DNA of 41,812 nt. Origin: a virus (lineage: Duplodnaviria; Caudoviricetes). The notes under the pieces are model-generated. The model was not told the origin of the DNA, did not search any database, and was given only the letters and a program-made list of their open reading frames with translations. The first letter of the stretch is position 1, and each line of letters begins with the position of its first letter. A program made the translations under genes and the position numbers. The stretch spans positions 1 to 41,812 of IMG/VR virus record IMGVR_UViG_3300032253_000009; one strand, written 5' to 3'. Shown here in pieces: positions 716-31,854 of this stretch.

Positions 716-733
716 TCTTAAAGGAGATTTAAA

Positions 734-862
734 ATGGCACTAGCACCACACGCAGAAGATAAGAAAGCGCAAGAAATGAAGAAGGCAGGCAAGTTTAATG
801 TCGGCATTCCTAAATCCGCTTCTATCAAACGTGCTGAAAAAGCACTAGAAAATAAGAAGTAA
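734..862 (+). CDS. 42-aa basic hypothetical protein
   Basis: Strong AAGGAG SD; MALAPHAEDKKAQEMKKAGKFNVGIPKSASIKRAEKALENKK; below ORF-track cutoff. Confidence 0.7.
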   Translation: MALAPHAEDKKAQEMKKAGKFNVGIPKSASIKRAEKALENKK

Positions 863-5562: not shown

Positions 5563-6069
5563 ATGGCTGAAACAAAAATAACATACGGAACACCAACAGA
5601 TTTAGCCATAACATCGGCAGACGGAAACGGTGACGGGGTTTGGTGCTCATCGGCATTATTCAATAACTCTGTATCTTTATTTATGGACGTACTTGTGGGT
5701 GGCTCATTACAAGTGGGCACAATCGCGGCAGGGGGTGGCACAATAGATATTTATGTCGCGGGTTCATGGGATGGTACAGAATTCACAGGCGGCTGCGATG
5801 CAGGGGATGCTGATATAACATGGGGTACAACAGGGAGTACCTATGTTGGCGGTGAATTCGATTTAATTTTATTGAAATCACTTACAGTTGATGCAACTGA
5901 CGATGATAATGATATTGTTTTTGGCGCGTTTAGTATCGCTCAAGCATTCGGTGGCGTTATGCCTCTGGAATTCGCTATTATAGTTGAAAACAATACTGGC
6001 GCGGCGCTTCATGCAACAGGCGCAAACAATCACATTGATACTACTGGCATAACATACACAACCGCATAA
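5563..6069 (+). CDS. Acidic beta-rich putative virion protein
   Basis: Gly/Thr/Asp-rich 168 aa, coupled to the LamG gene. Confidence 0.55.
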   Translation: MAETKITYGTPTDLAITSADGNGDGVWCSSALFNNSVSLFMDVLVGGSLQVGTIAAGGGTIDIYVAGSWDGTEFTGGCDAGDADITWGTTGSTYVGGEFDLILLKSLTVDATDDDNDIVFGAFSIAQAFGGVMPLEFAIIVENNTGAALHATGANNHIDTTGITYTTA

Positions 6070-7643
6070 TGAGCTTTATTAAGCAAAAAATACGCTGGAC
6101 AAAAAAGCCTGATAGTGATGTTAGGATAGATTCATCACATCCATTCGCTGAAAATATTAAATTTGCGATGTGGACTGGTGATGGTGGCAACTTGCAGCAC
6201 TTTGATGCAGCAACGGGTAAGCTATACCCAAGAAGCAGCGCGACATATTCAAGCCGTAAAGTGGATATGCACGGAAGGTTTACTGATTTTGCAGGCACAG
6301 GGACATCAACTTTTGACGCTATCCAGTTAGGTGATCCGCCTGAGTTACAAATAAGTGAAGAAATAACCATATTAGCGGGCGTTATGCCTACAGCATTGCA
6401 GCCTTCCAATTGGGGGCGGATTGTTGCAAAAGATGATATATGGGGTTTAATTGTTCAAGATTACCCAAATGATGGACAGTTATCATTTAGAGTCAACGGA
6501 ACAGGGTTAAATGGTTCAGCACAGCTCGTCAATGATGTTTACTATGATTTAGCTGTAACCTATAAAAGTGGTGATAAAAACATCTATATCGACGGTGTTT
6601 TAGATGCGAACACAACTGGGCAAACTGGATCGATAACCACTGCCGGCGATGTCTCTATAGGTGAACGACCAGCGCAAACGAATAGACACTTTATCGGGGG
6701 CATATATTATGTAGTTGTTGTTGACAAAGCTTTATCTCAAAAAGAAATACAAGAGTTTAGGAGTAACCCCACTAAAATACTAGCGCCACAGGTACGGTAT
6801 ATACCGTTTGAAGTTTCGGCGGCAGGTGGAGTAATAAATAGTATAACTTTATCTGATAATTTAGATGTAACTGATCCAGAACTAAAAGCTTATCGTGAAC
6901 TTTTTGCTTTATTATCTAGTAATATAGAACTTGTCGATGTTGTTATTATATCTCTACAACAAACAGCAGGACAGAATACAAGATTATTAAATGATGAATT
7001 AGTTATAGTTGATAACTTAATTAAATTTGCAACGTTATTTAAATTAGTTAATGAAAATGTAGAGTTATCAGATTCATTAAGTAAGACATTAGAAACATTT
7101 AAGCTATTATCAGAAGGCATAGATTTAAGTGATTCATTAATATCAGAACTTACTGGTTTAATTGTTAGAAACTTAACAGATGATATAGAGATATCAGAAG
7201 AAGTAAACCACTATTCACAATTATTTAAATTATTTAATGATGGTCTGGATATAACAGATTCTTTATTAACTTTAACAGGAACAGTAGTAGTTAGACTATT
7301 ACAAGATGGTTTAGATATAACTGATGCTATATCTATAACTATTATAAGAAATAAATTAGTAAGTTTATTAGATAACGTAACTATATCAGATGATTTAATT
7401 AAATCATTAGAATCATTAAAAGTCTTAAGTGATAATTTAGATGTTAGTGATGCTTTAATTAAATCATTAGTACAAGCATTAAAAGAAAGATTGTTATCAG
7501 ATAATATAAGTGTATCAGATAGCATTTCAATAGCTTTGCAAACTGCATTAATTGCGGCTAGTTTAATTAAATCTGATTTAGAATTGAAAGCTATAATAAC
7601 TTCTATATTAATGAAAGATATTAATACAGATTTGGAGAATTAG
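6069..7643 (+). CDS. LamG/concanavalin-like lectin domain plus C-terminal repetitive stalk (putative adhesin)
   Basis: YYDLAVTY...NIYIDGVL...SIG...FIGGIYYV...KALSQKEI LamG pattern; repeated L-x-D-x-(L/I)-x-(I/V/L)-(S/T)-D units. Confidence 0.75.
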   Translation: MSFIKQKIRWTKKPDSDVRIDSSHPFAENIKFAMWTGDGGNLQHFDAATGKLYPRSSATYSSRKVDMHGRFTDFAGTGTSTFDAIQLGDPPELQISEEITILAGVMPTALQPSNWGRIVAKDDIWGLIVQDYPNDGQLSFRVNGTGLNGSAQLVNDVYYDLAVTYKSGDKNIYIDGVLDANTTGQTGSITTAGDVSIGERPAQTNRHFIGGIYYVVVVDKALSQKEIQEFRSNPTKILAPQVRYIPFEVSAAGGVINSITLSDNLDVTDPELKAYRELFALLSSNIELVDVVIISLQQTAGQNTRLLNDELVIVDNLIKFATLFKLVNENVELSDSLSKTLETFKLLSEGIDLSDSLISELTGLIVRNLTDDIEISEEVNHYSQLFKLFNDGLDITDSLLTLTGTVVVRLLQDGLDITDAISITIIRNKLVSLLDNVTISDDLIKSLESLKVLSDNLDVSDALIKSLVQALKERLLSDNISVSDSISIALQTALIAASLIKSDLELKAIITSILMKDINTDLEN

Positions 7644-7644
7644 A

Positions 7645-7923
7645 ATGGCAAACTATAAAAACGTAATTGCAGGCGATACTATAAAGTTTAAATTTGTTAG
7701 TAGTGGCGATACTTTTAACCCTATCTTTATAGATATTCGAGACGGTTCAGAAACATTAGTTCATTCTGCTACTATGTCCAGTTCAGGTAATGGGCATTAC
7801 TTCTATAACTATACTACAATTAACAGTGATGGGTTTTACTCTGGCAAAATGATTGGGTATATAAACAGCCTAGCCTATGTTCGGCCTGAATGGTATCGTA
7901 TAACACCTATGGAGGTGGATTAA
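7645..7923 (+). CDS. Small Ig-like putative virion protein
   Basis: GDTI...GHYFYNYT...GFY pattern; structural operon context. Confidence 0.45.
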   Translation: MANYKNVIAGDTIKFKFVSSGDTFNPIFIDIRDGSETLVHSATMSSSGNGHYFYNYTTINSDGFYSGKMIGYINSLAYVRPEWYRITPMEVD

Positions 7924-9441: not shown

Positions 9442-10403
9442 TGGCTTATGGTCAATCAAGTAATATAGGTATTAGTTTTCAAAATTCTTATGGAACATTA
9501 CTAACTAATTCAGTTTATTGGATGCCGCATTTAAGTGATAGCGTAGGTAAAAACATTGAGCAATTAATGTCTGAATCAATGCGCGGTATCTATGATGAAG
9601 GTGAAACTTATGAAGGCAAGAACACGTCTGACGGTGATTTAGAATTTGAAGTTCAACCTATTCCAGTAGGCGTAATTTTAAAAGCAATGTTTGGTGAACC
9701 TACCAGTGTTAATTCTGGTGCTATTTACAGCCATACATTTAAACCGCGCAATTCTGATTTTGATGAATTATCAGCAGCAGATCCTATTACGTATCATCAA
9801 TATTTAGATACTGGATCAGCGCAGCTTCATTATGACTTAAACGCTAACACTTTAGAAATGTCAGTAGCACAAGGTGAACTACTTAAAATGACTTGTGGCT
9901 TTGTTGGCGGTAACTTTCAACAAGTAGCAGGCATATCTCCAAGCTATCCAAATGAAAAACACTTTACATGGGATGCTACAAGTCTAAGCATAGGCGGTTC
10001 AGGTAAAAATGAAATACTTGATATTTCTATTTCAGTCGATGAAACGTTAGAAGCTATGTTTACTTTAGATGGTACTAAAACACCTAGCCGCGTTAAGCGT
10101 ACAGGCTTAAGAACTATTGAAGTATCTGGTACATTAAAATTTGATAATCAAAATGAATATCAAGAATTTCTTACGCAATCAGAACGTGAATTAATTGCAA
10201 CGTTTACAGGTGCCACTGAAATTCAATCAGGTTACTACGATACTATTGAAGTTAAAATGCCTAAACTTCGTTATGGCGAACTAAAACCGTCAGCAGGCGG
10301 TGCAGGTCAAATAGAAGCAAGTTTTACAGGTAAAGCTAAATACAGTGTATCTAGTGCTACTGCAATGCAAATACTTTTAGTCAATACACAAGCAGCATAT
10401 TAA
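9441..10403 (+). CDS. Major tail tube protein
   Basis: 320 aa, YSHTFKP, RTIEVSGTLKF; precedes chaperone and tape measure; no sheath gene seen. Confidence 0.8.
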   Translation: MAYGQSSNIGISFQNSYGTLLTNSVYWMPHLSDSVGKNIEQLMSESMRGIYDEGETYEGKNTSDGDLEFEVQPIPVGVILKAMFGEPTSVNSGAIYSHTFKPRNSDFDELSAADPITYHQYLDTGSAQLHYDLNANTLEMSVAQGELLKMTCGFVGGNFQQVAGISPSYPNEKHFTWDATSLSIGGSGKNEILDISISVDETLEAMFTLDGTKTPSRVKRTGLRTIEVSGTLKFDNQNEYQEFLTQSERELIATFTGATEIQSGYYDTIEVKMPKLRYGELKPSAGGAGQIEASFTGKAKYSVSSATAMQILLVNTQAAY

Positions 10404-10423
10404 TCTTAAAGGAGATTTAAAAA

Positions 10424-10819
10424 ATGTCTGGATTTCAAAGGAATTTTAAATACATAACCACCTTCGATGGTGACAATGTAGAATTTACCTTAACAGGTCT
10501 ATCACGTAAAGATGTAATCTTACTTACTCCACTTTTTGAAAAAGTAAGTAAAAATATTACAGATGAAGAAGCTAACAACATTGCTAATACATTTATGGAT
10601 GTAGCTAAACCACATGTAGTAAGTATGGTAGGTTTAAAAGATGGAGAAGGAAATGCTATTGATGTAGATACTATGTTATCTGAACAATATTTTTTTAGTT
10701 TATCTGGTGAAGTCGTAAATCATTTAATGGAGAAAAGTAACCCAGTAATTAAAAAGGAAGATGAAAAAAAGTTACCCGAGTCCTTACCCATTACTTCGAT
10801 TCAGGCACAGGGCGAATAA
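10424..10819 (+). CDS. Tail assembly chaperone (lambda G-like)
   Basis: Between tube and tape measure; slippery site near its 3' end. Confidence 0.75.
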   Translation: MSGFQRNFKYITTFDGDNVEFTLTGLSRKDVILLTPLFEKVSKNITDEEANNIANTFMDVAKPHVVSMVGLKDGEGNAIDVDTMLSEQYFFSLSGEVVNHLMEKSNPVIKKEDEKKLPESLPITSIQAQGE

Positions 10820-11055
10820 TAGATAATTATGTTATTAGCGGCTTACTTTTATCAGATTGGATTAGTATTTTTTCATCTTGCCATAACGTATCAGATAGCA
10901 ATAGATTAATGTTTATTGCTTGGCCTGATGGTAAAAGTTATTTTGAGCAAGATAATATCTTGTTTAGTATGTTTTCTATTATACGCGGTGCTTATATAGA
11001 CCACGTAAACAGAGAAGCTAAAAAAGCAGCTCGTAAATTAAAAGGTAGTAATTAA
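10765..11055 (+). other. Programmed -1 frameshift site and GT-like chaperone extension
   Basis: A AAA AAG at 10765-10771; -1 frame open (VTRVLTHYFD...WPDGKSYFEQD...) to TAA 11053-11055 overlapping the tape-measure ATG. Confidence 0.85.
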
Positions 11056-13130
11056 TGTCTAGTAATGTAATAGAATTTGTACTAAGTGCTAAAGATAAGA
11101 TGTCAAAGCCTATGGGCTTAGCCGCTAAATCTTTTAGAGGTGTCACTAGTTCTATCTTTTCATTAAAAGGCGCTTTAGGTGGTTTAGCATTAGGTGCAGT
11201 TGCTAAATCATTTATTGATGCTGCTAATACAACTGAACAGCTTAATATTCGTTTAGGCGTATTGCTTGGCAGTGTAGAAGAAGGTAATCGTTTATTTAGT
11301 GAAATGACTCAGTTTGCTTCTGAAGTGCCTTTTGAGTTTGAAGAAATAATGGAGTCTTCAACAGCATTAGCAGGCGTAATGAAAGGCGGTGTTGATGAAA
11401 TAAAAGAATGGATGCCTTTAATTGGTGATTTAGCTGCAACCACAGGGCTAGGTATCCAAGAAACGACTGAACAAGTTCAACGAATGCTTTCAGCAGGTGC
11501 GGCCAGTGCAGATAAGTTTAGAGAGCGCGGTGTAACTGCAATGTTAGGCTTTCAATCTGGTGTAAGTTACTCAGCAGAAGAAACTAAACAGCGTTTAATG
11601 GATGCTTGGAAAGATCCACTATCTAAATTTAAAGGTGCGACTAAACAACTAGCAACATCATGGACAGGTATTATGTCTATGATTGGTGATAAATGGTTTG
11701 CTATAAAAACCACTATTATGGATTCTGGTTTAATGGATTTCTTAAAAGCTATCGGTACAACGATTGACAAGTACATGGGTAATACATTAGCTAACGTAAA
11801 AGTAGGTGCTAAAGATTTAACAGGCAGCATTATTGCTTTTGCTGATTCAGTTGCTAGTTTTATGTCTATCTTATCAACGATAGCCAGAGGCGTTCAGATT
11901 GCATTTAAGTCTGTTTACATTGTTATACAATCTTTAGTTGCTGCATCTTATGCCGTTTTTAATGCCGTTGGTCAATCCTATGTTGATTTTAGAAAGTTAT
12001 TAGATGAAGATTTTAAAGAACCTACATTTTTAAGAGTGATAAAATTAGCTTCTATAGATGCTAGAAAACAGGTAGTCGATACTAAGAATGAAATAGTTGA
12101 ATTGGCTACTTCAGAATGGCCTGCTACTGGTATTGAGAATTTTAAAAATGAAGTTGTTAGCAGCTTTATACAAATTAGAGAGCAATCAAAACTAACAAAA
12201 AATGCTAAAGATAAAGCGGCTGAATCTGAAAAAACCTATTGGAAAACTTTAACAACTGAACAACAAAACTATTTAACTAAGAATTCAGAAGACAACATGC
12301 TAGAAGTTGAACAACTTCGTGAAAAGTTAGAAGGGAAAATTATAGCGCTTCAAGAGTACAACATGCTTGAAAGTGAAATTGTTAATGCTAAATATGTACA
12401 AGATTTATTAAATTTAGAAAACTATTACATGATGTCAGGTATGGCAGATGCACAATACGCGCAGCTAAAAGAAAATTTAGAAGCTAAACATCAAAAGAAT
12501 TTAGCAGCGACTAGAAAGAATGCATTGCAAGGTTCATTTGATTTTGCAGAAGCGATAAGACAAAAAGATTTAGCAGCAGGTCTAGCAGCAGGTATGCAGA
12601 TGCTTAGTCAATTAGCTACGCAAAATAAAACAGCTTTTAGAATTCAAAAAGCAATGGCACTTGCTAAAGCCGTTGTAACATTACCAAGTGCAGTTATGCA
12701 GTCATTTGATAATGGCGGTGGCTATCCTTGGGGTTTAATACCAGCAGGGTTGATGCTTGCAACTGGTTTAAAAAATATCAGTGATATTAAAAATACACAA
12801 TACGGTGGTCAAGCGCATAGTGGTTTAACAAATGTGCCGCGTGAGGGAACGTACTTATTAGATAAGGGTGAACGTGTTATACAACCCGATCAAAATAGAG
12901 ATTTAACATCATTTTTAGGCGGTAGCGGCAGTGAGGGTAGTGGTGGTAGTATCACCATTTCACAACTTAATATAAGTGTTTTAGAAAATGCAACAAGTGG
13001 AGATGCTTTGTTAAATATGGATTCGAGAGATTTAGAAGAGGTGATAGCCGCTAAATTTATACCTGCTTTAAATGCTTTATCTAATCGCGGCATAACTCAA
13101 GATGCAATTACACAAGCAGAGGATGTATAA
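11055..13130 (+). CDS. Tape measure protein
   Basis: IEFVLSAKD start, FASEVPFE tape-measure domain, helical body, C-terminal AHSG...LLDKGERV. Confidence 0.9.
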   Translation: MSSNVIEFVLSAKDKMSKPMGLAAKSFRGVTSSIFSLKGALGGLALGAVAKSFIDAANTTEQLNIRLGVLLGSVEEGNRLFSEMTQFASEVPFEFEEIMESSTALAGVMKGGVDEIKEWMPLIGDLAATTGLGIQETTEQVQRMLSAGAASADKFRERGVTAMLGFQSGVSYSAEETKQRLMDAWKDPLSKFKGATKQLATSWTGIMSMIGDKWFAIKTTIMDSGLMDFLKAIGTTIDKYMGNTLANVKVGAKDLTGSIIAFADSVASFMSILSTIARGVQIAFKSVYIVIQSLVAASYAVFNAVGQSYVDFRKLLDEDFKEPTFLRVIKLASIDARKQVVDTKNEIVELATSEWPATGIENFKNEVVSSFIQIREQSKLTKNAKDKAAESEKTYWKTLTTEQQNYLTKNSEDNMLEVEQLREKLEGKIIALQEYNMLESEIVNAKYVQDLLNLENYYMMSGMADAQYAQLKENLEAKHQKNLAATRKNALQGSFDFAEAIRQKDLAAGLAAGMQMLSQLATQNKTAFRIQKAMALAKAVVTLPSAVMQSFDNGGGYPWGLIPAGLMLATGLKNISDIKNTQYGGQAHSGLTNVPREGTYLLDKGERVIQPDQNRDLTSFLGGSGSEGSGGSITISQLNISVLENATSGDALLNMDSRDLEEVIAAKFIPALNALSNRGITQDAITQAEDV

Positions 13131-13483
13131 TGTCTTATCTTCTTTTTATAAGTAGTGGTATAGATGTCTCATTCAATCCGGAGTATGATTTTAGTGATAA
13201 GGTAAGGAAAAAAGAATCTAAACATAGAACACCTAGCGGGCGTGAATACGTTTATAAATGGGGTGATTATAGACAATGGAAGTTTTCAGTAATGTATGTA
13301 AACAGCAGCTTTACTTCGATTGTTAATAGTTGGTGGTCTTCTAATACTGAATTATTGTTTATGAAAGAAGGTGCTACAGAAGTGTACAGTGTTCGTTTAG
13401 GCGGTACAACCTCTCCAATCTCAAAGTTTATAGAGCCTTATGATACATTGTATAAAGGCGAAATAGAGTTAGGCACTTATTAG
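13130..13483 (+). CDS. Putative distal tail protein
   Basis: Directly after tape measure; HRTPSG motif. Confidence 0.55.
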   Translation: MSYLLFISSGIDVSFNPEYDFSDKVRKKESKHRTPSGREYVYKWGDYRQWKFSVMYVNSSFTSIVNSWWSSNTELLFMKEGATEVYSVRLGGTTSPISKFIEPYDTLYKGEIELGTY

Positions 13484-14662
13484 ATGGTACGACAAGTTAC
13501 ATCATGGTTTATAGACCAAGCTGAAAGCCATACCAGCGAGCCTGTTAGAAAGTTTTATATAGGGAATAGTGATTACTCAGATTATGTACACCGTTGGCCT
13601 TCTTTTAGCCGTACATGGGATTCAGTTAGACCAACTAATTTAACTGTTAACCTTTCTAATGAAGATAAAACATTTAATTTTTTTATTAGTGATAGAATTA
13701 ATTTAGTTAATAGTTGTTCTATTCAATTAGGATATACACATATAACAAGTGGTGATGAATTAATAGACTTTTATAACGGTATGATAACTAAAGTCAGTTA
13801 TGGTAATGGCACAGCTAAAATAAGTATAGAAGATAAATTTAAACCATTATCTGAAAAATTAATAGGCACACAAGATACACCAATAGATTACACAGGCTCC
13901 AACCATTTACCAAGTGATTTAGCTTGGTATATATGCACTTCTCATGGTGGGTTAGATGCGACACAAAGCTCTGCTAATACTGATATAGATTATGATAGTT
14001 TTCAAACATGGGCAGCTATATTTAGCAGTGATGCTGTATATTTAGAAGGGCGCTTTACAGGGCAGAAATGCACCGATGCTCTTAGAAGGATATCAAGAGT
14101 AACGCGATCGTCTATTAATATAAAAGCAAATAAAATAGCATTTCAACGATTTAGTTTAGTTGACTCACTGTCAACTGTAATAACAGAAGATAGTAACTTA
14201 GGTATTACGTTAGATTTAGATGATAAAAGTATTATTAATAAACAGCACATGTTATTTAATTATGATACGACTAGTAAGTACCATTCTAATAGTTTAATCC
14301 ACATTAATACAATGAGTGTAAATAGCTATGGGGCACATGAAGAAGTTGAAAAAGATAATAAAGTTTGGTATGTAGATTCTCCATCTGCTAACAATGCAGC
14401 GCAACGAACCGTATTAACTAAAGGCTTACCTTATAATAGTTTAGAAGTTATTACAGCCGCTAACGGTATAGTTAGTGAAATAGGGGATATGATTCAATTA
14501 ACAGAATCACATTTAGACATTAGTGCAGAAACTTATAGAATAATGAGTTCTAAATATAATTTAGATACTCTCAAATGCTCATTTAAAATAGATGCTTCAC
14601 AATTAAATAACGCATTCGTATTAAATACAAGCTCATTAAATGGTTCAGATATATTATCTTAA
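13484..14662 (+). CDS. Putative tail tip/hub protein
   Basis: 392 aa; EIGDMIQLT...YRIMS hub-like C-terminus. Confidence 0.6.
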   Translation: MVRQVTSWFIDQAESHTSEPVRKFYIGNSDYSDYVHRWPSFSRTWDSVRPTNLTVNLSNEDKTFNFFISDRINLVNSCSIQLGYTHITSGDELIDFYNGMITKVSYGNGTAKISIEDKFKPLSEKLIGTQDTPIDYTGSNHLPSDLAWYICTSHGGLDATQSSANTDIDYDSFQTWAAIFSSDAVYLEGRFTGQKCTDALRRISRVTRSSINIKANKIAFQRFSLVDSLSTVITEDSNLGITLDLDDKSIINKQHMLFNYDTTSKYHSNSLIHINTMSVNSYGAHEEVEKDNKVWYVDSPSANNAAQRTVLTKGLPYNSLEVITAANGIVSEIGDMIQLTESHLDISAETYRIMSSKYNLDTLKCSFKIDASQLNNAFVLNTSSLNGSDILS

Positions 14663-14674
14663 AGGAGATTTAAA

Positions 14675-14893
14675 ATGGCAGAAATAAGAACGTTTTACTG
14701 TGATGTTCCAGAGTGTGAAGGACATTATAAAGAAACAAAATTTGGTGAAGGTGCTAAAGATTTTGGTAAGTTTATAGGCATTATTTTAAATGATGTTGAT
14801 GCGCCTATATTTTGTGAAGGACATCGTGCAATGGTAGCTGATTTTGTTGATTCATTAAAAGGCAATCCTACAGCAATTGATATAAGTAAATAG
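14675..14893 (+). CDS. Small Cys/His-containing protein
   Basis: CDVPEC...CEGH possible metal site; strong SD. Confidence 0.6.
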   Translation: MAEIRTFYCDVPECEGHYKETKFGEGAKDFGKFIGIILNDVDAPIFCEGHRAMVADFVDSLKGNPTAIDISK

Positions 14894-16009: not shown

Positions 16010-16338
16010 GTTGTTCAGTTCCCTTTTTATCTAATTGGTATCACGCAAGAGGCTATAAACCTGCATGTGTAAAACACGATGAAAAGTATGAAGAAGCTAA
16101 AAGTTATACTCATAAACTTAAATCTGATTTTGAAATGCTACCTGATATGCTTGAAGAAAATAATTCTTGGTATACTTACTTGATCGCGCCTTTTACTGTT
16201 TTTGTTTTAACGTTTCAGCCTTCATCATATTACTTATATTTTAAGAACAAGAAAAATAGAACAGGTAAAGTTTTATCTTATTTCTATTTAGTATTATCTA
16301 TTTACTCTACTTATCAACTTTGGGAATACTTAAAATGA
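16006..16338 (+). CDS. Hypothetical membrane protein with CxxHDxxY motif
   Basis: ACVKHDEKY resembles the phospholipase A2-like catalytic motif; two hydrophobic segments. Confidence 0.45.
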   Translation: MSCSVPFLSNWYHARGYKPACVKHDEKYEEAKSYTHKLKSDFEMLPDMLEENNSWYTYLIAPFTVFVLTFQPSSYYLYFKNKKNRTGKVLSYFYLVLSIYSTYQLWEYLK

Positions 16339-16931
16339 TATTAATTAGCACAGGACATCACGCCTATAAAAAAGGTGCTAACTTTGAAGGGTTCTATGAA
16401 TTTGATGAAGCTAAGATATGGTCTTCATTAATCGCTTACTATATAGGCAATAATGTAATGGTTGTTCCTAATGGCGTGCTTAAAGAAAAAGTTGATTTTA
16501 TTAACTCTCAAAAAGATGTATCTATTGCCGTTGAAGTTCATTTTAATAGTGCCCAAAGAAAGATAGGCGAAAAAACAATAGTTGAATCAGATGGTAGTGA
16601 AGTAATAGAAAATATATATGAACGTATCGGTAATGGTTGCGAAACGCTACATTATCCAGATAGTGTTAAAGGCATTAAAGCAGCTAAGCTTGTTCAATCT
16701 GCTATGGCTAAAGTATTTAAACCAGATAGAGGTATTAAAGAAGGTTACTTCAGAATGGATTCTGCTAATGGTGTAGATTACTTTTTAGCACGTACTAATT
16801 GTGTATCACTAATTATAGAACCTGAATTTATACATCATAAAGATTTAATACAAAAAAATCGTGATGATTGCTGTGCAGTAATAGCACAAGCACTAGTAAC
16901 TTTTTCAAACAACAATAAGGCTTTAAAATGA
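16335..16931 (+). CDS. Endolysin, N-acetylmuramoyl-L-alanine amidase (Amidase_3-like)
   Basis: ILISTGH...E, VEVHFNS, IIEPEFI zinc-amidase motifs. Confidence 0.85.
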   Translation: MILISTGHHAYKKGANFEGFYEFDEAKIWSSLIAYYIGNNVMVVPNGVLKEKVDFINSQKDVSIAVEVHFNSAQRKIGEKTIVESDGSEVIENIYERIGNGCETLHYPDSVKGIKAAKLVQSAMAKVFKPDRGIKEGYFRMDSANGVDYFLARTNCVSLIIEPEFIHHKDLIQKNRDDCCAVIAQALVTFSNNNKALK

Positions 16932-18520: not shown

Positions 18521-18717
18521 GATAGACCGCCACTATTACCTTTATCTACGAACACGCACTCTCTACCACTAGGCGTTTTAAATTCATAAATTTCAGCTTG
18601 TAAATTATAATCATATTGAGAATGTGCAGATTTTTGAGGATTACAACTTAACAAAAACGCACAAGTAAACATTGCTAATAAACTACTTTTTACTATCATT
18701 TTTAAATCTCCTTTCAT
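18508..18717 (-). CDS. Putative small lipoprotein
   Basis: Signal peptide with LLSC lipobox; strong SD before the internal MIVK start. Confidence 0.6.
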   Translation of the reverse strand: MKGDLKMIVKSSLLAMFTCAFLLSCNPQKSAHSQYDYNLQAEIYEFKTPSGRECVFVDKGNSGGLSCRW

Positions 18718-18861
18718 TATTAAAAACTTGCTTTACTCTTTCAACATGTTTAGTGTACTCATGTAAAGTAAGTTCTTTAGCTTTAAATCTTTTTTCAAAG
18801 TGTTTAATTAGTTCTCTATATCGTTTTAAAGTCACTTATTCTTTAGCCTCATACATTCACC

Positions 18862-19077
18862 TTAATCATTGTTGTTATTCTGTGTCTGCTTGGTTAATTT
18901 CAAATCGTTTCTTATTTGAAAAGATAGCTCGTTATACATAAAAACAACTCCAACATGGATAGCTTTAATTCTGCCAAAATCAATGTATTTTAAAAATACT
19001 GTTGGCAATATGTAAAAAACTCCATTGCTAGACGCAGTTGATTGCGTGTGCCTTATATATCTAAACTTAATCTTCAT
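18862..19077 (-). CDS. Cassette ORF, 71 aa
   Basis: AGGAGGAG SD; ends NNNND inside the repeat. Confidence 0.6.
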   Translation of the reverse strand: MKIKFRYIRHTQSTASSNGVFYILPTVFLKYIDFGRIKAIHVGVVFMYNELSFQIRNDLKLTKQTQNNNND

Positions 19078-19117
19078 GTCTCCTCCTGTTTAATTACGTT
19101 ACCACTCATACATCACC

Positions 19118-19279
19118 TTAATCATTGTTACTTTTATCGGTTAAAATGTCACCAGTATCAACGTCAACTGTTCTGTAATTAAAATCATCATCACGAAGTG
19201 AAACCCATGCCATCATTTCTGTATACCATTCACTAACAAACACCCATTCACTACCGTTAAAATATTCTAAGTTTATCAT
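19118..19279 (-). CDS. Cassette ORF, 53 aa
   Basis: MINLEYFNGSEWVFVSEW...DKSNND; start and stop both supplied by repeats. Confidence 0.65.
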   Translation of the reverse strand: MINLEYFNGSEWVFVSEWYTEMMAWVSLRDDDFNYRTVDVDTGDILTDKSNND

Positions 19280-19307
19280 ACATCACCTCAATCATTGTTG
19301 TTTAAAC

Positions 19308-19586
19308 TTAGCTACCTTTAGCTATAAGTTCTTCTACTAATTTAGAATTAAAGTTAGGGTTTTCAGGGTCGGCTATTTCATAAATTGTTAAACGTAACAT
19401 TAAAGCATTTAACTTATCATCATTCAATTCAGCAGCACGTTCACCCACTAGATATAGTAACTTGCCAAATATGTTTAAAGGAACTTTTAAAATATTACAG
19501 TCATTGTTAACTAAAATCTCTTCTAGTAAATTAGCGGTATGTACTTTCCACAGCGCAGGTGGTAGTTCTTTTACTTGGTTATTCAT
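19308..19586 (-). CDS. Cassette ORF, 92 aa
   Basis: Starts at a repeat-associated ATG. Confidence 0.65.
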   Translation of the reverse strand: MNNQVKELPPALWKVHTANLLEEILVNNDCNILKVPLNIFGKLLYLVGERAAELNDDKLNALMLRLTIYEIADPENPNFNSKLVEELIAKGS

Positions 19587-19612
19587 GTCATCACCTTAAT
19601 CATTGCTGTTTT

Positions 19613-19798
19613 TTAATTACCATTCTCTAGTTCATCAATTAAAATTAAAACAGCATCCCAAGCGTGGGCATATTACTTGTAAAACTCTGGCTTAGCTTGT
19701 TCGTTTAATTCAAGGAACTGTGTAACGCCTAACTTGATTGCATTTATAGTTTCGGTTAGGTCTGTGTTTTCTCTGAAAAGATAGTCTTCTGTATTCAC
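19613..19798 (-). pseudogene. Cassette ORF with internal TAA
   Basis: GTG start at repeat; ...KPEFYK*YAHAWDAVLILIDELENGN*; stop at 19673-19675. Confidence 0.5.
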
Positions 19799-19807
19799 AT
19801 CATCACC

Positions 19808-19996
19808 TTAATCATTGTTGTTTACCTTGAAGTTTTGGATTTCCAAAACCTGAATCACATCGCCTAGTAGAAATGTAAGTTCGTCATAACTCCATGAATC
19901 TAATGTAACCTGACCATCTATTATTAGGTCTGACACATCAAAGCCCATTTCTTGTAAGGAATTTACATTTGCCTTATGCTCTGGAAAGCTACTCAT
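19808..19996 (-). CDS. Cassette ORF, 62 aa
   Basis: Repeat-to-repeat ORF ending VNNND. Confidence 0.65.
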   Translation of the reverse strand: MSSFPEHKANVNSLQEMGFDVSDLIIDGQVTLDSWSYDELTFLLGDVIQVLEIQNFKVNNND

Positions 19997-20015
19997 ATCA
20001 TCACCTTAATCATTG

Positions 20016-20174
20016 TTAAAAATACGGTTGTTCTTTAATTTCTTTTATTGCATATTCCTTGAGAGTTACTTGTTTAATCTCTCCATCCTCATCAATGATA
20101 ACGCAACAATTAAAAGTTGTTGCGCTGCACTCGTAGTCTGTTGAATGCTCAAAGCCGTATATGTCGCAACTCAT
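20016..20174 (-). CDS. Cassette ORF, 52 aa, Cys-containing
   Basis: MSCDIYGFEHSTDYEC...KEQPYF; starts at a repeat ATG. Confidence 0.6.
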   Translation of the reverse strand: MSCDIYGFEHSTDYECSATTFNCCVIIDEDGEIKQVTLKEYAIKEIKEQPYF

Positions 20175-20182
20175 GTATCACC

Positions 20183-20371
20183 TCAATTATTGTTGTTATA
20201 ATCGTGTAGTGGGTATCTATCTTCTATACTTTCCCACTGTTTCACGATTGACTCGAAATGCGTATTGGTCGCAGGAATATGAGCCGCTACAACCTTAAAC
20301 ATATCTACCATGACATTACTTAATATCGTCAATCTTATAGTTAAGTTTTTAATTTCTTCGTCTTTAGTCAC
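20183..20371 (-). CDS. Cassette ORF, 62 aa
   Basis: GTG start at repeat; ends YNNNN in the next repeat. Confidence 0.65.
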   Translation of the reverse strand: MTKDEEIKNLTIRLTILSNVMVDMFKVVAAHIPATNTHFESIVKQWESIEDRYPLHDYNNNN

Positions 20372-20384
20372 GTCATCACCTTAA

Positions 20385-20609
20385 TCATTGTTGTTTATTT
20401 AATAATCTAATCTGGCTTGCATCCCAAGCTTCTATGTATTCAGGTATCGTTAATGGTTTTTCACAGGGTTCTTGTGGTGCGTATTTATAAGATCCATAAC
20501 CTATAGATAAATCAGCTATATTTTTAATCCTATACCTCAATTGGCAGTTACCCTGCGCGGGATTTAATGCCCTACATGAACCGCATACTTTCTTTTGTGA
20601 TTTCTTCAT
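20385..20609 (-). CDS. Cassette ORF, 74 aa, four Cys
   Basis: CGSC...C...C; stop lies inside the repeat in an alternative frame (NKQQ*). Confidence 0.65.
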   Translation of the reverse strand: MKKSQKKVCGSCRALNPAQGNCQLRYRIKNIADLSIGYGSYKYAPQEPCEKPLTIPEYIEAWDASQIRLLNKQQ

Positions 20610-20938
20610 ACATCACCTTTAATTGGTGGAGTGGGTAAATCAAATAAAAATTCATCAGTAGTCGTATCCGTTCCACCTTTACTATCTAAATACCGAATAT
20701 ATATACCATCCTCAATTGTCGGATGCTCACCAAGTGTTTTAACTGGTCTTAATCTTCCGCAAGGCCAAGAGGTCAAAAACAACTTATCAACACTAATCCA
20801 TTCACTCTGCTTTTCTAGTTGCTCGATGAATTTACCTGCCTCTACTAGCATTTTTTCTAAATCAACTACGTCCCCTTCTTCTAAAACTAAACGTATTGAG
20901 TGGACTATTGTTTTCGCTTCATCTATTAGTTTGGTCAT
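20606..20938 (-). CDS. Hypothetical protein with DUF551-like boundary motifs
   Basis: EWISVD ... LPTPP. Confidence 0.55.
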   Translation of the reverse strand: MTKLIDEAKTIVHSIRLVLEEGDVVDLEKMLVEAGKFIEQLEKQSEWISVDKLFLTSWPCGRLRPVKTLGEHPTIEDGIYIRYLDSKGGTDTTTDEFLFDLPTPPIKGDV

Positions 20939-21257
20939 TCCGATAGCTCCTTGCTTTGTGATACGCAGCCCTTAGTGCGTCACGATTGGGGTTATATGGA
21001 TTTCTGCCGCTAGTATCCTCCCTCGCGTCAACGTCAATGCAAAGTGTACTCATATCATAATCAATATTATCATCTATGTAGATGTTGCCTTTCGGCTCTC
21101 CTCCCATGCCCGCTACCCACATCACATGCTCTGTGTTTTCTTGCTGCCATTTCGCGCATACCATACCAAGCAAAGAACATAGCACCTCCTCGAAACCTTC
21201 TGGAACAACTACGCCGCAAGGGAAATTTATTTTTATTTGGTTTAATTCTTCTGTCAT
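20919..21257 (-). CDS. Hypothetical protein
   Basis: 112 aa, GGGGA SD, MTEE start. Confidence 0.6.
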   Translation of the reverse strand: MTEELNQIKINFPCGVVVPEGFEEVLCSLLGMVCAKWQQENTEHVMWVAGMGGEPKGNIYIDDNIDYDMSTLCIDVDAREDTSGRNPYNPNRDALRAAYHKARSYRNDQTNR

Positions 21258-21545
21258 TTAACTATCCCCTATCTGGTTGAGTGCTTCAACTAGCGCGTTA
21301 AATCTCATTAAATCCCCTTTACACTCTGGAGGGTAGGATTCGCGCACATACCTAGTCGAGCATACTTCAATATCAAGTAACCTCTCATTCTCTCCCTTAA
21401 CCTTATCGAGTTCGGCAACCAGTTCAGCGTTTTTTGTTTCTAATTCGTTAATAGTATTACACACTGGACAATACCAATTATCTTCATGAGCGCTACGGCC
21501 ACCCATACATTCAAGCTCTACCTTATGCTTTCTGCACTTTCTCAT
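21258..21545 (-). CDS. Zn-finger plus coiled-coil protein
   Basis: CRKH...WYCPVC followed by ETKNAELV coiled coil. Confidence 0.6.
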   Translation of the reverse strand: MRKCRKHKVELECMGGRSAHEDNWYCPVCNTINELETKNAELVAELDKVKGENERLLDIEVCSTRYVRESYPPECKGDLMRFNALVEALNQIGDS

Positions 21546-21556
21546 TTATTTATATC

Positions 21557-21718
21557 CTATTCCAAATAGCTTTTAAGCTCTTCCACTAACTCTAAATTCT
21601 CTTCGAGTCGATCTACTACATGATGGAAACTACTAGAACCACGTAAAGATTCATCTTGGTCTATTTCTTCTTGTAAATCTTCTATTTGTTCTTCAATACT
21701 TTTATATTCTTCTGTCAT
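21557..21718 (-). CDS. 53-aa acidic coiled-coil protein
   Basis: MTEEYKSIEEQIEDLQEEID...; shares a 21-nt start region with the gene starting at 21257. Confidence 0.55.
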   Translation of the reverse strand: MTEEYKSIEEQIEDLQEEIDQDESLRGSSSFHHVVDRLEENLELVEELKSYLE

Positions 21719-21728
21719 TTAACTATTC

Positions 21729-22091
21729 TCACTTGTTAGCGTACGCATTAGCAAATATAACTGCGGGTTCTATATCCCAGAATCTACCCTTGCTTGTAAT
21801 TTCACCTTTAAATGGAACAAAGATAACCGTATAACCGTTTTTAACTCCGCTATATTTAGGGTCTGCTACTTTACAAATTAACAAACACTCCTTAACTCGT
21901 TGCTTAACACCTGAATAATTAGTGATGTCAAACGTAGGATTATTTTGCTTCGGTATTTCCCTAAAAGTTTTATCAGCGAAAATAATAACTTCTAATTTAT
22001 TTTTCATCATCTTTCCCCGCCCAAAAATGCTTGTATCTATTAAGTAATTCAACCTCTTCAACCAGTTCAGCGTTTTTTGTTTCCGCCTCAT
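21729..22091 (-). CDS. Hypothetical protein (true start probably internal MMKNKL)
   Basis: ORF track; GGGGA SD before the internal ATG. Confidence 0.5.
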   Translation of the reverse strand: MRRKQKTLNWLKRLNYLIDTSIFGRGKMMKNKLEVIIFADKTFREIPKQNNPTFDITNYSGVKQRVKECLLICKVADPKYSGVKNGYTVIFVPFKGEITSKGRFWDIEPAVIFANAYANK

Positions 22092-22251
22092 TTAGTTGGG
22101 CTTGGAGTTGCTCTATTTCAGGTATGCGGTATTTATTATCCAATTCAATGACTAGATCCATTAAATCGTCAACATTCCACTTAGTACACTGTATTCTAAC
22201 TTTTCTACCGATAATAAGTCGCCCTATAGAAAATTCATGTAAATCACTCAC
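21997..22251 (-). CDS. Coiled-coil hypothetical protein
   Basis: AGGAG SD; contains the same ETKNAELV block. Confidence 0.55.
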   Translation of the reverse strand: MSDLHEFSIGRLIIGRKVRIQCTKWNVDDLMDLVIELDNKYRIPEIEQLQAQLNEAETKNAELVEEVELLNRYKHFWAGKDDEK

Positions 22252-22690: not shown

Positions 22691-24027
22691 TTTCTTTTTA
22701 TCCTTTTTTTCATTGCATTTAAAAAACCTTTTTGTGATGAATCCTTATCTTCTTGTTGTGCTATTACGTCTCCATCTACTGAATTTAATATAATAGGTCT
22801 ATGTACTATTACCTGTTCTTCTTGGCCTTGTCTGTCAAGCCTGCCTATAAATTGATATACATCACCGTACTTGTCTAAGTGACTGTAAAAGCATAAATTA
22901 TACCCACCTTCTTGCATGTTATTACCATGCGCTAAAACAGAAATTTGACCGATTAAAACCTCATACTTCTTTTTGTTCCAATACTTTATTATTTTCTTAA
23001 CGTCTTTAGTACCTGAACCTATATGTGGCGCGTTAGGAAACGCTTGTTTTAATACATGATAATCATGCTTATATTCATAACCTATTAATAAAGGCTCACC
23101 TTCTAATTCATCAACTAAGTCTTGAACTGCCCATATCTTTTCGTCATGTATTCTAATTATCTTTTTGTTTTCATCATAGATACGACCATTACAAAACTGT
23201 TTTAATTTGCCGCGTTTAACGGCTGCATTAACAGCAGTAATAACACCTTCATCTAATTCAGTTATAAATTCTCTTTCAAGTTCATCATATTGTTTACGAA
23301 TAGCTTTAGGTAGTTCAATGTAAATATCATTATATAAAACAGGCTTTCGCTTACGCTCTCTATCAGGTCGATAAATAATATCACTTATTGCTTCGTGAAT
23401 TCTTTCTTTACCGTCTTCTTGTAATACATAGTCATAGCCCATATAACCGACTGGATTAAAAAACTTATTTCTATACGCTGTTATATATTGTCCTAATCTT
23501 TCACCTTCATCTAATATATAAATTTGTGAAAATAAATCCATATAAGACTGCGTGTTAGGTGTAGCTGATAATAAATATCGCCTACTAAACTTATGAAGTA
23601 TCTTTTTAAACGTTTTAAAGCGCCCAGTTTTAAAACCTTTTGCTTTGTCTGATTCATCTATTATTAATGTAGTAGCTTTTAAATGTTTTAAATTTTTAAG
23701 TAGCCAAGGTAGGCCGTCAAAATTCATAATATAAATATCAGCTTTCTTTTTTAAATTCTTGTCTTTATCTTTCCCATGCAATGATTGATAAGTAAAACCA
23801 AAATCCCATTTCTTGTCTTCATTTTGCCATACTTCACCATCTAGTATTTTTAATGTAGTAATAATAATAGCACCGTGAAACATATCTTTAGATTTTAATA
23901 TTTCTAAAACACTTTGCGTAGTTGCTGTTTTACCATCACCGACATCTAAGAAAGCGCCACTAGCAGGACGTTCTAACATGAACTTGATGCAATCTATTTG
24001 CATTTCATCTGCGGGGAAATTGCTCAT
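22687..24027 (-). CDS. SNF2-family (SF2) helicase
   Basis: LDVGDGKT, IIDES, LSATP, HGNNMQ, QFIGRLDRQGQ. Confidence 0.9.
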   Translation of the reverse strand: MSNFPADEMQIDCIKFMLERPASGAFLDVGDGKTATTQSVLEILKSKDMFHGAIIITTLKILDGEVWQNEDKKWDFGFTYQSLHGKDKDKNLKKKADIYIMNFDGLPWLLKNLKHLKATTLIIDESDKAKGFKTGRFKTFKKILHKFSRRYLLSATPNTQSYMDLFSQIYILDEGERLGQYITAYRNKFFNPVGYMGYDYVLQEDGKERIHEAISDIIYRPDRERKRKPVLYNDIYIELPKAIRKQYDELEREFITELDEGVITAVNAAVKRGKLKQFCNGRIYDENKKIIRIHDEKIWAVQDLVDELEGEPLLIGYEYKHDYHVLKQAFPNAPHIGSGTKDVKKIIKYWNKKKYEVLIGQISVLAHGNNMQEGGYNLCFYSHLDKYGDVYQFIGRLDRQGQEEQVIVHRPIILNSVDGDVIAQQEDKDSSQKGFLNAMKKRIKRK

Positions 24028-28265: not shown

Positions 28266-28532
28266 CTAGCCTTTTAATAGTAGCGGTAAATCTTTATAGC
28301 CGCGCGTTTTGTTATTATTTAATCTATCAACTGTTTTTATAATTTTCTTTGTTAAATTTTCTAAATCAATTTCTTTAGAAACTTTGCAAGCACTATAAAC
28401 TTTATTATTACAAGTGATTGTGTAACTATAAAAATTACCATCGTCTATAATACTTTCTACTTGATATAAATTTTTCATTTTATTTTCCCTTTTATATGAG
28501 CGGGTGAGTGGATGGATTTGAACCATCGACAT
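28266..28532 (-). CDS. Hypothetical protein (true start probably internal MKNLYQ)
   Basis: AAGGGA SD before the internal ATG; track N-terminus overlaps the tRNA-like element. Confidence 0.5.
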   Translation of the reverse strand: MSMVQIHPLTRSYKRENKMKNLYQVESIIDDGNFYSYTITCNNKVYSACKVSKEIDLENLTKKIIKTVDRLNNNKTRGYKDLPLLLKG

Positions 28533-28602
28533 AGAGGTACTTGCATATACCTTTTTCTATACTAGAATCTAGCGCGTTTAACCTGACTCCGCCACACTCA
28601 CC
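28503..28602 (-). ncRNA. tRNA-His-like RNA with collapsed anticodon loop and long extra arm
   Basis: 8-bp acceptor GGTGAGTG/CACTCACC, D arm GCG-GAGTCAGGTTAAA-CGC, T arm GATGG-TTCAAAT-CCATC; no encoded CCA. Confidence 0.8.
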
Positions 28603-30162: not shown

Positions 30163-30539
30163 CTTTTAACACCTTTAGTCAGTGATTTTTTAGTAAACGG
30201 TTTAATGAAGGTAAACTTAGTGCCTGCTTCTATCATTTCTCTATATGCACCTTGTGATAATCGCAAGTCTAAAAGCTGCATAGCATCTTTATCTTGTGCG
30301 TATTTTAAAAGCTTGGGCTTATCTTTTGCAGCGATATTACCCATAACCGTTTCAGAGATATTAACGCTACCTAGCGCTACTTTTGTGCCTGTTTGCTTTT
30401 CAGCTTCAAGCATTTTAATTATTTCTTTTTCAAGTTCAGAAGCTTGTGATTTTAAATCAGTTACTTTTTTATTTTCTTCTGCAATCTTAGTTTTAAGTTT
30501 TAAATACTTTGTTACTACTGTTCCAATTTTATTAGCCAT
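30159..30539 (-). CDS. Coiled-coil replication-module protein
   Basis: N-terminal coiled coil; GGCTAGGAG RBS. Confidence 0.65.
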   Translation of the reverse strand: MANKIGTVVTKYLKLKTKIAEENKKVTDLKSQASELEKEIIKMLEAEKQTGTKVALGSVNISETVMGNIAAKDKPKLLKYAQDKDAMQLLDLRLSQGAYREMIEAGTKFTFIKPFTKKSLTKGVKR

Positions 30540-30568
30540 TTTAATTCTCCTAGCCTATTAAAAGTTTG

Positions 30569-31020: not shown

Positions 31021-31140
31021 CTAACCCCACTTATGAAATGGGTTACTAATACAGAATACTTTTCCTGCTACTCTAATAAATATAGCAAACAATCTGCCGT
31101 TTGGTCTGTAAAAATTAATATTTATAAAATTACTATTCAT
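31021..31140 (-). CDS. 39-aa early peptide
   Basis: MNSNFININFYRPNGRLFAIFIRVAGKVFCISNPFHKWG behind a promoter and GGCTAGGAG RBS. Confidence 0.55.
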   Translation of the reverse strand: MNSNFININFYRPNGRLFAIFIRVAGKVFCISNPFHKWG

Positions 31141-31147
31141 TTTAATT

Positions 31148-31207
31148 CTCCTAGCCGTTGTTGTTTAAAATATGTTTATTATAACCTAATTAATTATTAA
31201 ATGTAAA
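31148..31207 (-). promoter_or_regulatory. Sigma70-like promoter and leader, copy 1
   Basis: TTTACA-18 nt-TATAAT, then AAACAACAACGGCTAGGAG. Confidence 0.7.
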
Positions 31208-31208
31208 G

Positions 31209-31424
31209 TTATTTATTAATTAAATGCATCTCACCTTTATAAACTTCTTTGTCTGGTGCGGCATTAGTTTTTACTGATATAATCTTAATTCCTCTATACC
31301 CTTCTTCTAACCATTGTTCGCGCTCTGCTTCAATTTCGTCTGCACAATCTTGACGAACAAAGCTGCCGTATAGCTCTACTTGTTCTTCATCAATATCTGC
31401 TACTACTCTATAATATGTGTTCAT
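31209..31424 (-). CDS. Acidic early protein, 71 aa
   Basis: Lies between the two promoter copies; GGCTAGGA RBS. Confidence 0.65.
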   Translation of the reverse strand: MNTYYRVVADIDEEQVELYGSFVRQDCADEIEAEREQWLEEGYRGIKIISVKTNAAPDKEVYKGEMHLINK

Positions 31425-31425
31425 G

Positions 31426-31488
31426 TTCCTAGCCTTTTGTTTGTTTCGATGTCTTTATTATACACTAATTAACTATTAAATATACATT
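31426..31488 (-). promoter_or_regulatory. Sigma70-like promoter and leader, copy 2
   Basis: TGTATA-TTTAATAGTTAATTAGTG-TATAAT, near-identical spacer and leader to copy 1. Confidence 0.65.
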
Positions 31489-31854
31489 TAATTAACAATT
31501 ATTTGATTTAATTTTGAAGTGCTTAAAAATTGTACAATAATTAACCAAAAACTATTAAATTAATGCTTTACTTTTATAGGATACGCTTTTAAACGTGTCT
31601 AGGGCGCGATAATTCAAGCTATATAATCGTATTAACTACTAGTAGAAAACGTCTAGGAAACGTTGTAATAAAGTGTACTATTTAACTATATTATAAAATG
31701 CTAATAAACAATAATCCTAAAGCACACATGTTAATAGCAGTATAAGAAACTGTTAATATAGGAATTTCAAGTTCTGATAATGTCTTATTTCCAAATTGTA
31801 AATAAATAAAAGTAATGTTTAAAATCATAACTATTATAAAAATATATTCTGGCT

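What the first reader, a model, noticed from the sequence alone, without database searches (positions are those of the whole stretch)
18850..20620. Minigene cassette array delimited by a stop+SD+start direct repeat
Seen: nine copies of minus-strand AACAACAATGATT(A/G)AGGTGATG-n(1-2)-(A/G)TG spaced 256, 170, 308, 212, 198, 177, 198 and 237 bp. Each interval holds essentially one unrelated 52-92 codon ORF. The repeat carries stops in two frames (ORFs end ...NND*, NNNN* or KQQ*), the AGGTG SD and the next start codon, so any cassette placed between repeats is expressed and coupled. No integrase, attC-type hairpin or Cas gene is evident. Inference: a plug-in gene library shuffled by short-homology recombination, possibly using the phage exonuclease and annealing protein, plausibly holding anti-defence or host-takeover peptides.
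Basis: partly seen in the sequence, partly recalled or inferred. Interest (0 to 1): 0.8.

Follow-up and report, generated by a model that had tools for sequence, protein, structure and literature searches.

The report
Shared linker across three unrelated phages
A 17-base stop-and-ribosome-site linker joins a row of tiny unrelated genes in this uncultured phage and recurs almost letter for letter around different genes in two unrelated phages found with it, so it likely serves as a common joint through which phages that probably share a host swap accessory genes.

Summary
The repeat is real: eight intact copies plus a degenerate ninth, at the stated spacings, at the far end of the early operon of a circular 41.7-kb tailed phage. 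Six of eight intervals hold one clean gene; two are broken or composite. The genes are not paralogues, and four have homologues in other phages or metagenomes.

The 17-nt core AACAATGATTAAGGTGA also occurs six times intact (plus one truncated copy) in an unrelated 46-kb phage (G001), around different genes, and once in a third phage (G002). Both occur in the same sequencing run. It is absent from 34 related records. All seven window sites sharing an exact 20-mer with G001 lie in this island, including mosaic gene pieces.

Best reading: a promoter-less translation linker that likely doubles as a short-homology crossover site for a shared accessory-gene pool. This is a variant of the published 'linker' idea (PeSL, boundary sequences). 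No excision, circle or same-backbone variant was seen. Anti-defence cargo and a window-encoded annealing protein are unsupported. The scan has noted similar linker arrays on other DNA.

The parts
20607..20624 (-). degenerate linker copy 1 (SD half and start only)
20385..20609 (-). cassette gene, 74 aa, four conserved Cys (predicted Zn-binding), ends KQQ* in the linker
   Evidence: 42 homologues at E<=1e-3, most matching from residue 1-6 to about 60-67; Cys pattern in 7 fetched homologues
20374..20395 (-). linker copy 2 (24 nt exact with G001 20816-20839)
20183..20371 (-). cassette gene, 62 aa, GTG start, ends NNNN*; no family hit
20176..20197 (-). linker copy 3
20016..20174 (-). cassette gene, 52 aa, stop at the linker's 5' edge; no family hit
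19999..20020 (-). linker copy 4
19808..19996 (-). cassette gene, 62 aa, ends NNND*; homologue is ORF45 of Vibrio phage vB_VpaM_R16F, 71% nt from the ATG on, with no linker seen there
19801..19822 (-). linker copy 5
19613..19798 (-). broken cassette: 41-aa ORF, in-frame TAA, then 19 more open codons; no homologue found
19589..19610 (-). linker copy 6
19308..19586 (-). cassette gene, 92 aa, predicted all-helical; widespread unnamed phage family
   Evidence: 20 homologues at 55-66%; 20 viral loci; model pLDDT 88.7
19281..19313 (-). linker copy 7 with a 12-nt 5' extension identical to the coding end of an unrelated G001 gene
19118..19279 (-). cassette gene, 53 aa, predicted beta-beta-alpha-beta-beta; family conserved to LTDKS, with the NND* tail supplied by the linker
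19111..19132 (-). linker copy 8
19074..19109 (-). 11-codon ORF (MSGNVIKQEET*), likely a deletion remnant, coupled to the next gene by ATGA
18862..19077 (-). 71-aa gene with its own AGGAGG, ends NNNND*
18850..18877 (-). linker copy 9, G001-type 3' side, 28 nt exact with G001 20639-20666
18832..18852 (-). 6-codon ORF (MRLKNK*) overlapping the GTG of a 50-aa ORF at 18683-18835
20606..20938 (-). mosaic gene (110 aa): blocks 20911-20939 (97%) and 20787-20833 (94%) shared with a G001 gene, with weakly alike or unrelated sequence between and after
21245..21267 (-). second linker type (ATAGTTAAATGAC: stop plus start); copies also at 21706-21726 and twice in G001
21416..21441 (-). intragenic module (ETKNAELV), 25 nt exact with 22059-22083
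22046..22124 (-). intragenic coiled-coil-like module shared with G001 (87% over 79 nt) and in part with G002

Best explanation
The repeat is a promoter-less 17-nt stop/ribosome-site linker that joins unrelated small genes here and different genes in two unrelated co-occurring phages, and it likely acts as a short-homology crossover point through which accessory genes would be swapped, gained and lost among phages that probably infect one host.

Steps. (1) Shown: the core holds stops in two frames and an AGGTG(A) SD a few bases before the next start, with little local structure. (2) Inferred: a gene placed between two copies is translated from the early operon's transcript. (3) Shown: the linker and a few near-identical intragenic blocks are nearly the only DNA shared between the window and G001, and they flank non-homologous sequence. 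(4) Inferred: crossovers at these 17-79-nt homologies, during co-infection or infection of a lysogen, made the mosaics. They were probably carried out by phage annealing proteins such as G002's recombinase or G001's Gp2.5-like protein, or by host recombination. (5) Inferred: crossing in register keeps expression intact, so the linker is retained and copied within each genome. The cargo is dispensable and turns over (broken cassettes in both arrays). Its function is untested; host-interaction roles are a guess.
For: - Core columns are 13-15 of 15 identical across 15 intact copies in three phages.
- Backbones are unrelated: window vs G001 TerL 27.5%, helicase 28.5%, primase 20%. G002 has a different capsid and portal family, plus NinG and a recombinase.
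- All 13 blastn matches window-G001 lie in 18.8-22.1 kb. 7 of 7 window sites with an exact shared 20-mer, and 11 of 12 with an 18-mer, lie there; the reversed-genome control gives 0.
- The genes next to the linkers are non-homologous within and between phages: of 153 pairs, those with the highest z (4.2-4.9) score only 34-36 raw.
- The linker does not follow backbone descent: 0 of 34 related records (14 at least 90% complete) have it within 2 mismatches, and 0 of 12 G001 relatives with at least 3.4 kb at the syntenic place have an array. The G001 island is 35% GC against 40% for the rest.
- Flanks are reassorted: the two longest shared 5' extensions (12 and 8 nt) are cross-phage pairs with no shared 3' extension, and the longest 3' extension is another cross-phage pair.
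- Gene bodies end at the linker: the 53-aa family is conserved to LTDKS and the linker supplies NND*.
- AGGTG stands before 9 of 9 linker-associated starts but only 2 of 50 hand-picked other window genes.
- The window and G001 are both whole contigs in run X1. A loose end in X1 matches G002's sequence.
Against: - No two genomes of one backbone with different cassette content were found, so no swap is caught in the act. No intact cassette gene is shared between the window and G001.
- Runs X2 and X3 show the same order wherever they cover it, with no deletion joints (low-depth contigs only).
- Exact identity is only 17-28 nt, short for RecA-type recombination (recalled minimum about 23-27 bp). 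Very short homologies recombine rarely (PMC2327257, passage).
- 5' and 3' flank similarity is weakly positively correlated (rho 0.24 over 105 non-independent pairs), so copies are not freely reassorted.
- No annealing protein was identified in the window.
- A shared host is inferred from co-occurrence and shared DNA, and was not tested.
Confidence: 0.66

Rival explanations
1. The repeat is only a start-associated translation element (A-rich leader plus SD, like the SAS of Cluster K mycobacteriophages). It came in once with a transferred island and is kept by selection on expression. Genes are replaced by illegitimate recombination, and only recombinants that keep the leader survive.
For: Strong SD pairing and little structure. 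Single orientation and position right before starts. A degenerate copy follows a sigma-70-like promoter in G001 at 23772-23786, and G001 has AGGTGA before several starts outside the island. No recombination product was observed.
Against: 11 of the 17 core bases lie outside the SD and are near-invariant although read in different frames. Identity extends into coding DNA shared across phages. Mid-gene blocks with no translational role show the same patchwork.
Confidence: 0.2
2. The core is a binding site for a protein (site-specific recombinase, translational regulator or anti-terminator) supplied by the host or by one of the phages, and that is why it is invariant.
For: Near-invariance of non-SD bases across three phages. 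A loose likeness of TAAC-AATG-ATTAAG to half an attC site (recalled, not from a call).
Against: No integrase among 75 window ORFs or among the 56 G001/G002 ORFs scanned (56 of 115 called). No dyad symmetry or hairpin: 1 of 16 folds had z below -2, and 0 of 8 copies had RYYYAAC or GTTRRRY boxes. The flanks show graded homology, not a fixed crossover base.
Confidence: 0.09
3. The array arose by tandem duplication of one gene followed by divergence, or is an assembly artefact.
For: Similar interval sizes.
Against: No pairwise homology. Four cassettes belong to four separate families, and the two modelled ones have different folds. An independent assembly gives the stretch in one piece with 0 differences, and contigs from two other runs bridge four copies.
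Confidence: 0.02

Closest known systems
Linker or boundary sequences of the modular theory of phage evolution (Botstein 1980; Clark et al. 2001; not read, known through passages of PMC2839356, PMC2327257 and PMC6466182)
   Same: Short conserved sequences at gene boundaries, shared between phages, that place and express the exchanged module.
   Different: Described for related lambdoid phages and mostly for functional modules. Here one 17-nt linker is repeated before each single mini-gene and is shared by three backbones with under 30% identity in the core proteins that align at all, while their own relatives lack it.
PeSL cassettes of T4-type phages RB49/phi1 (PMC2839356; abstract and Discussion read)
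   Same: Repeated elements between non-essential ORFans; no dedicated integrase; recombination between copies shuffles single genes.
   Different: A PeSL is a promoter plus terminator stem-loop that isolates each gene, and mini-circles were shown. This linker has neither part, couples genes in one operon, and circles are untested.
Start-associated sequences (SAS) of Cluster K mycobacteriophages (PMC3203893; passages read)
   Same: Asymmetric short repeat in the RBS position, one orientation, before non-structural genes, conserved beyond the SD, sometimes holding the upstream stop.
   Different: Different sequence. SAS is confined to one phage cluster, dispersed over the non-structural half of the genome, and proposed only for translation.
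Mosaic ea22 genes of the lambdoid exo-xis region (PMC10834534; passages read)
   Same: Early accessory genes built from shared coiled-coil blocks and unrelated C-terminal parts, like the window's 110-, 95- and 84-aa genes.
   Different: No Ea22 or DUF551 family hit here; the likeness is in architecture only.

Membership tests
Linker/boundary sequences (modular theory) | Short conserved sequence at gene boundaries shared between phages, flanking non-homologous genes | tested here: met
Linker/boundary sequences (modular theory) | Exchange occurs by recombination within the shared sequence | tested here: inconclusive
   Flank reassortment fits it; no recombinant seen
PeSL | sigma-70-like promoter within each element | tested here: not met
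   None at a copy among the 60 of 70 promoter-like sites listed; the conserved core is only 17 nt
PeSL | Stem-loop terminator within each element | tested here: not met
PeSL | Excised mini-circles | not testable with these tools
   Only assembled contigs were available
SAS (Cluster K) | Asymmetric repeat in RBS position, one orientation, non-structural genes, conserved beyond the SD | tested here: met
SAS (Cluster K) | The 13-bp SAS consensus, with or without the extended inverted repeats | tested here: not met
   The core differs from the consensus quoted; no hairpin at the copies
Integron cassette array | IntI tyrosine recombinase beside the array | tested here: not met
   No integrase family among 75 ORFs; a sub-threshold Int_N hit (E 0.037) lies on 35654-36172, far from the array
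Integron cassette array | attC: R''/R' boxes and a bottom-strand hairpin (consensus recalled) | tested here: not met
   0 of 8 copies with either box; no consistent fold
CRISPR array | Short non-coding spacers and cas genes | tested here: not met
   Intervals are 150-290-nt coding genes. Only a PD-(D/E)XK exonuclease with a sub-threshold Cas4 score. No Rfam CRISPR hit
Anti-defence proteins (e.g. AcrIF9 fold) | Sequence or fold match of a cassette protein to a known inhibitor | tested here: inconclusive
   The 53-aa model's top match is AcrIF9 at Z 3.7, rmsd 3.6, 52 aligned, tied with unrelated folds. Only 2 of 8 cassettes were modelled; no anti-defence library was available

The most novel reading that the evidence does not exclude
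Phages of unrelated families that share one host have converged on a common 'standard part': a host-tuned 17-nt translation linker, plus a few intragenic joints. It defines a cross-family cassette exchange network, an integron-like gene library without an integrase, driven in trans by a lambdoid neighbour's annealing protein or by a protein that recognises the core, and stocked with counter-defence peptides such as an AcrIF9-like fold.
Probability: 0.15. Interest if true: 0.8.

Novelty: new variant of a known kind. Interest (0 to 1): 0.48.

Why it matters
Whether phage mosaicism arises at dedicated short linkers or by random illegitimate recombination plus selection is an old question. This case gives a compact test system: one 17-nt sequence, three unrelated backbones that occur together, and 34 related records that lack it. 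If linker-directed exchange is confirmed, shared linkers could mark phages that share a host and could delimit small accessory genes for counter-defence screens. The concept itself is published, and neither the mechanism nor the cargo function is shown here.

Tried and rejected
- Exact-pattern scans: IMG/VR 20-mer gave 1 chance hit. JGI metagenomes gave 45 stretches, with an array only in the window's own contig. GTDB genomes gave 8 single hits with no array. Two looser IMG/VR scans (90 and 25 stretches) gave G001 as the only array. The pattern ends in GATG and could not have found G001-type copies.
- No close relative of the window's helicase in IMG/VR. The best PolA match among isolates was 33%.
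- tblastn of 4 cassettes against phage isolates: no match. Broken cassette read through with X: no homologue. The 62-aa (20183) and 52-aa cassettes were not searched in the large protein sets, and the 71-aa gene only against isolates.
- Pfam, PHROGs, NCBIfam and PADLOC: no hit above cut-off for any window cassette. G001's island genes were not scanned against Pfam.
- Fold searches of the 53- and 92-aa models: nothing at E<=0.001 or Z>=5. PDB sequence searches: nothing convincing. ESM Atlas: no usable hit for the 92-aa protein.
- No RNA holder was listed, so expression is unknown.
- Contigs of X1-X3 show no linker-precise deletion joints, but contigs drop rare variants.
- Literature: ten full-text searches listed no paper on this sequence or on a promoter-less linker shared by unrelated phage families. 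The library lacks most subscription papers, and no supplements were read.
- Integron, CRISPR, tandem paralogy and assembly artefact were rejected as set out above.

Full report
Context. The window is a circularly complete tailed-phage record (127-nt terminal repeat). It has head, tail and lysis genes on the plus strand and a leftward early/replication operon: primase, PolA, PD-(D/E)XK exonuclease, VRR-NUC-like nuclease and a helicase. No integrase family was hit among 75 ORFs. The array sits at the distal end of the leftward operon, where it meets the lysis genes.

Observation. Eight copies lie within 3 mismatches of the stated 22-mer, against none in 100 shuffles. A ninth is degenerate, and the spacings are as stated. 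Six of eight intervals hold one clean ORF. One has an internal stop, and one is an 11-codon remnant coupled to a 71-aa gene with its own SD. Across 15 intact copies in three phages the conserved unit is the 17-nt core AACAATGATTAAGGTGA (13-15 of 15 per column; three degenerate or truncated copies were left out of that count). It pairs with a recalled anti-SD and folds weakly. AGGTG precedes only 2 of 50 hand-picked genes elsewhere in the window.

The cargo includes real, unrelated genes. No pair among 18 island proteins from the three phages shows homology beyond a shared coiled-coil block (153 pairs). Four of eight window cassettes have homologues: 74 aa (42 hits), 62 aa (Vibrio phage R16F ORF45), 92 aa (20 hits) and 53 aa (8 hits). 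In 20 and 11 viral loci of the last two families the linker is not beside the gene. The 53-aa family is conserved up to LTDKS and then varies; here the linker supplies NND*. Four of the 20 loci (L162, L163, L164, L168) and one of the 11 (L229) carry other intergenic repeats, so these gene families recur in repeat-punctuated arrays. No function could be assigned. The 53-aa model's best structural match, AcrIF9 at Z 3.7, is tied with unrelated folds, and the 92-aa model has no clear match.

The key result is cross-phage sharing. An IMG/VR scan found a 46,149-bp record (G001) with six intact copies and one truncated copy, and a 36,528-bp record (G002) with one. G001's backbone shares only 20-29% identity with the window in TerL, helicase and primase, and G002 shares no core protein by blastp. 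G001's nearest isolates by primase are Vibrio phages (55-66%). G002 encodes a recombinase (Rad52-like by recalled motif), NinG and a Lar-like gene in its small-gene string; G001 encodes a Gp2.5-like protein. The window and G001 are whole contigs in run X1, and a loose end there matches G002. All 13 blastn matches between the window and G001, and 7 of 7 window sites with an exact shared 20-mer, lie in 18.8-22.3 kb. They comprise the linker and 25-79-nt blocks inside mosaic genes; a second stop-start linker is shared over 16 nt. G001's island is AT-rich relative to its backbone (35 vs 40% GC) and also holds a frameshifted cassette and a remnant. A 10-nt stretch after a linker in both phages suggests remnants of one ancestral cassette; this was noticed post hoc, by eye.

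The linker does not follow descent. It is absent within 2 mismatches from 34 records: 20 of the 80 listed capsid relatives of the window, 8 of 16 primase relatives of G001 and 6 carriers of cassette homologues; 14 of the 34 are at least 90% complete. At the syntenic place 0 of 12 informative G001 relatives have an array; 4 were too short. These relatives are distant (42-66%, plus one 6.5-kb fragment at 89%), so this shows lineage-restricted acquisition, not its date. Of two window relatives examined downstream of the helicase, one has a different 72-nt repeat ending in SD plus ATG and one has none.

Mechanism. The longest shared 5' flanks are cross-phage pairs with no shared 3' flank, while the base after AGGTGA is mostly phage-specific (T in 8 of 9 window copies, 0 of 6 intact G001 copies). 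This fits crossovers in or next to the core, copying within each genome, and one G001-type copy at 18862. I infer short-homology recombination by phage annealing proteins or host functions. Against this: no recombinant was seen, runs X2 and X3 show the same order where covered, the homology is short, left and right flank similarity is weakly correlated, and the window's candidate annealing gene is unverified. A purely translational, SAS-like role remains the main rival.

Comparison. It works like the linker or boundary sequences of the modular theory and like PeSLs (PMC2839356: abstract and Discussion; PMC2327257 and PMC6466182: passages). It is not a PeSL (no promoter or stem-loop), an integron or a CRISPR array. 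It shares the position and asymmetry of Cluster K SAS (PMC3203893: passages) but not the sequence. The mosaic neighbours recall lambdoid ea22 (PMC10834534: passages). Ten searches listed no paper on a promoter-less linker shared across unrelated phage families; coverage of subscription journals is poor and supplements were not read. Earlier notes of this scan describe similar linker arrays on other DNA; these are unchecked and are not counted as evidence, and none matched this sequence.

Verdict. Real, and a clean new variant of a known kind. The cross-family sharing among co-occurring phages is the noteworthy part; active shuffling and cargo function are unproven. Interest 0.48.

Noticed in passing
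window 935-4021 (+): A 1028-aa gene right after the major capsid gene fuses a GT4-type glycosyltransferase, a methyltransferase and a GT2 domain; it may modify the virion or the DNA.
   Followed up: no
window 28503-28601 (-): Rfam tRNA hit (42.8 bits) that ARAGORN does not call; it overlaps two small ORFs upstream of PolA.
   Followed up: partly
window 713-734, 10401-10422, 14654-14675 (+); 30537-30555 and 31138-31156 (-): The window has its own AGGAG-type junction repeats before structural and early genes, and twin promoter-like repeats at 31158-31222 and 31437-31501.
   Followed up: no
G001 23772-23786 (L146 about 7772-7786, -): A degenerate linker copy directly follows a sigma-70-like promoter (hexamers 17 nt apart, read by eye); the linker may derive from an early-transcript leader.
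   Followed up: partly
G001 10759-13353 (L145): DNA polymerase gene split in two by an HNH gene; G001 also has two more HNH genes and a peptide deformylase.
   Followed up: no
G001 5632-5677 and 6161-6303 vs G002 16165-16827: G001 and G002 share near-identical DNA next to their lysis genes (98% over 46 nt, 78% over 143 nt), a second sign of exchange between them.
   Followed up: no
L229 about 3460-4270: A homologue of the 53-aa cassette lies between copies of another repeat that starts at the stop codon and carries a small hairpin-like part (3-4 copies).
   Followed up: partly
L162, L163, L164, L168: Homologues of the 92-aa cassette sit in small-gene arrays with 4-10 copies of longer leader or promoter-like repeats.
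   Followed up: partly
L314 2009-2080, 2345-2416, 3032-3103: A distant relative of the window has a 72-nt repeat (two exact copies, one partial) ending in SD plus ATG downstream of its helicase.
   Followed up: partly
L225, L232, L231: The 53-aa domain also occurs at the end of a 563-codon open frame and at the start of a 179-aa protein.
   Followed up: no
L146 6471-6598: The stretch just upstream of G001's island matches a contig that continues into tRNA-like sequence; ARAGORN and Rfam call nothing there.
   Followed up: partly
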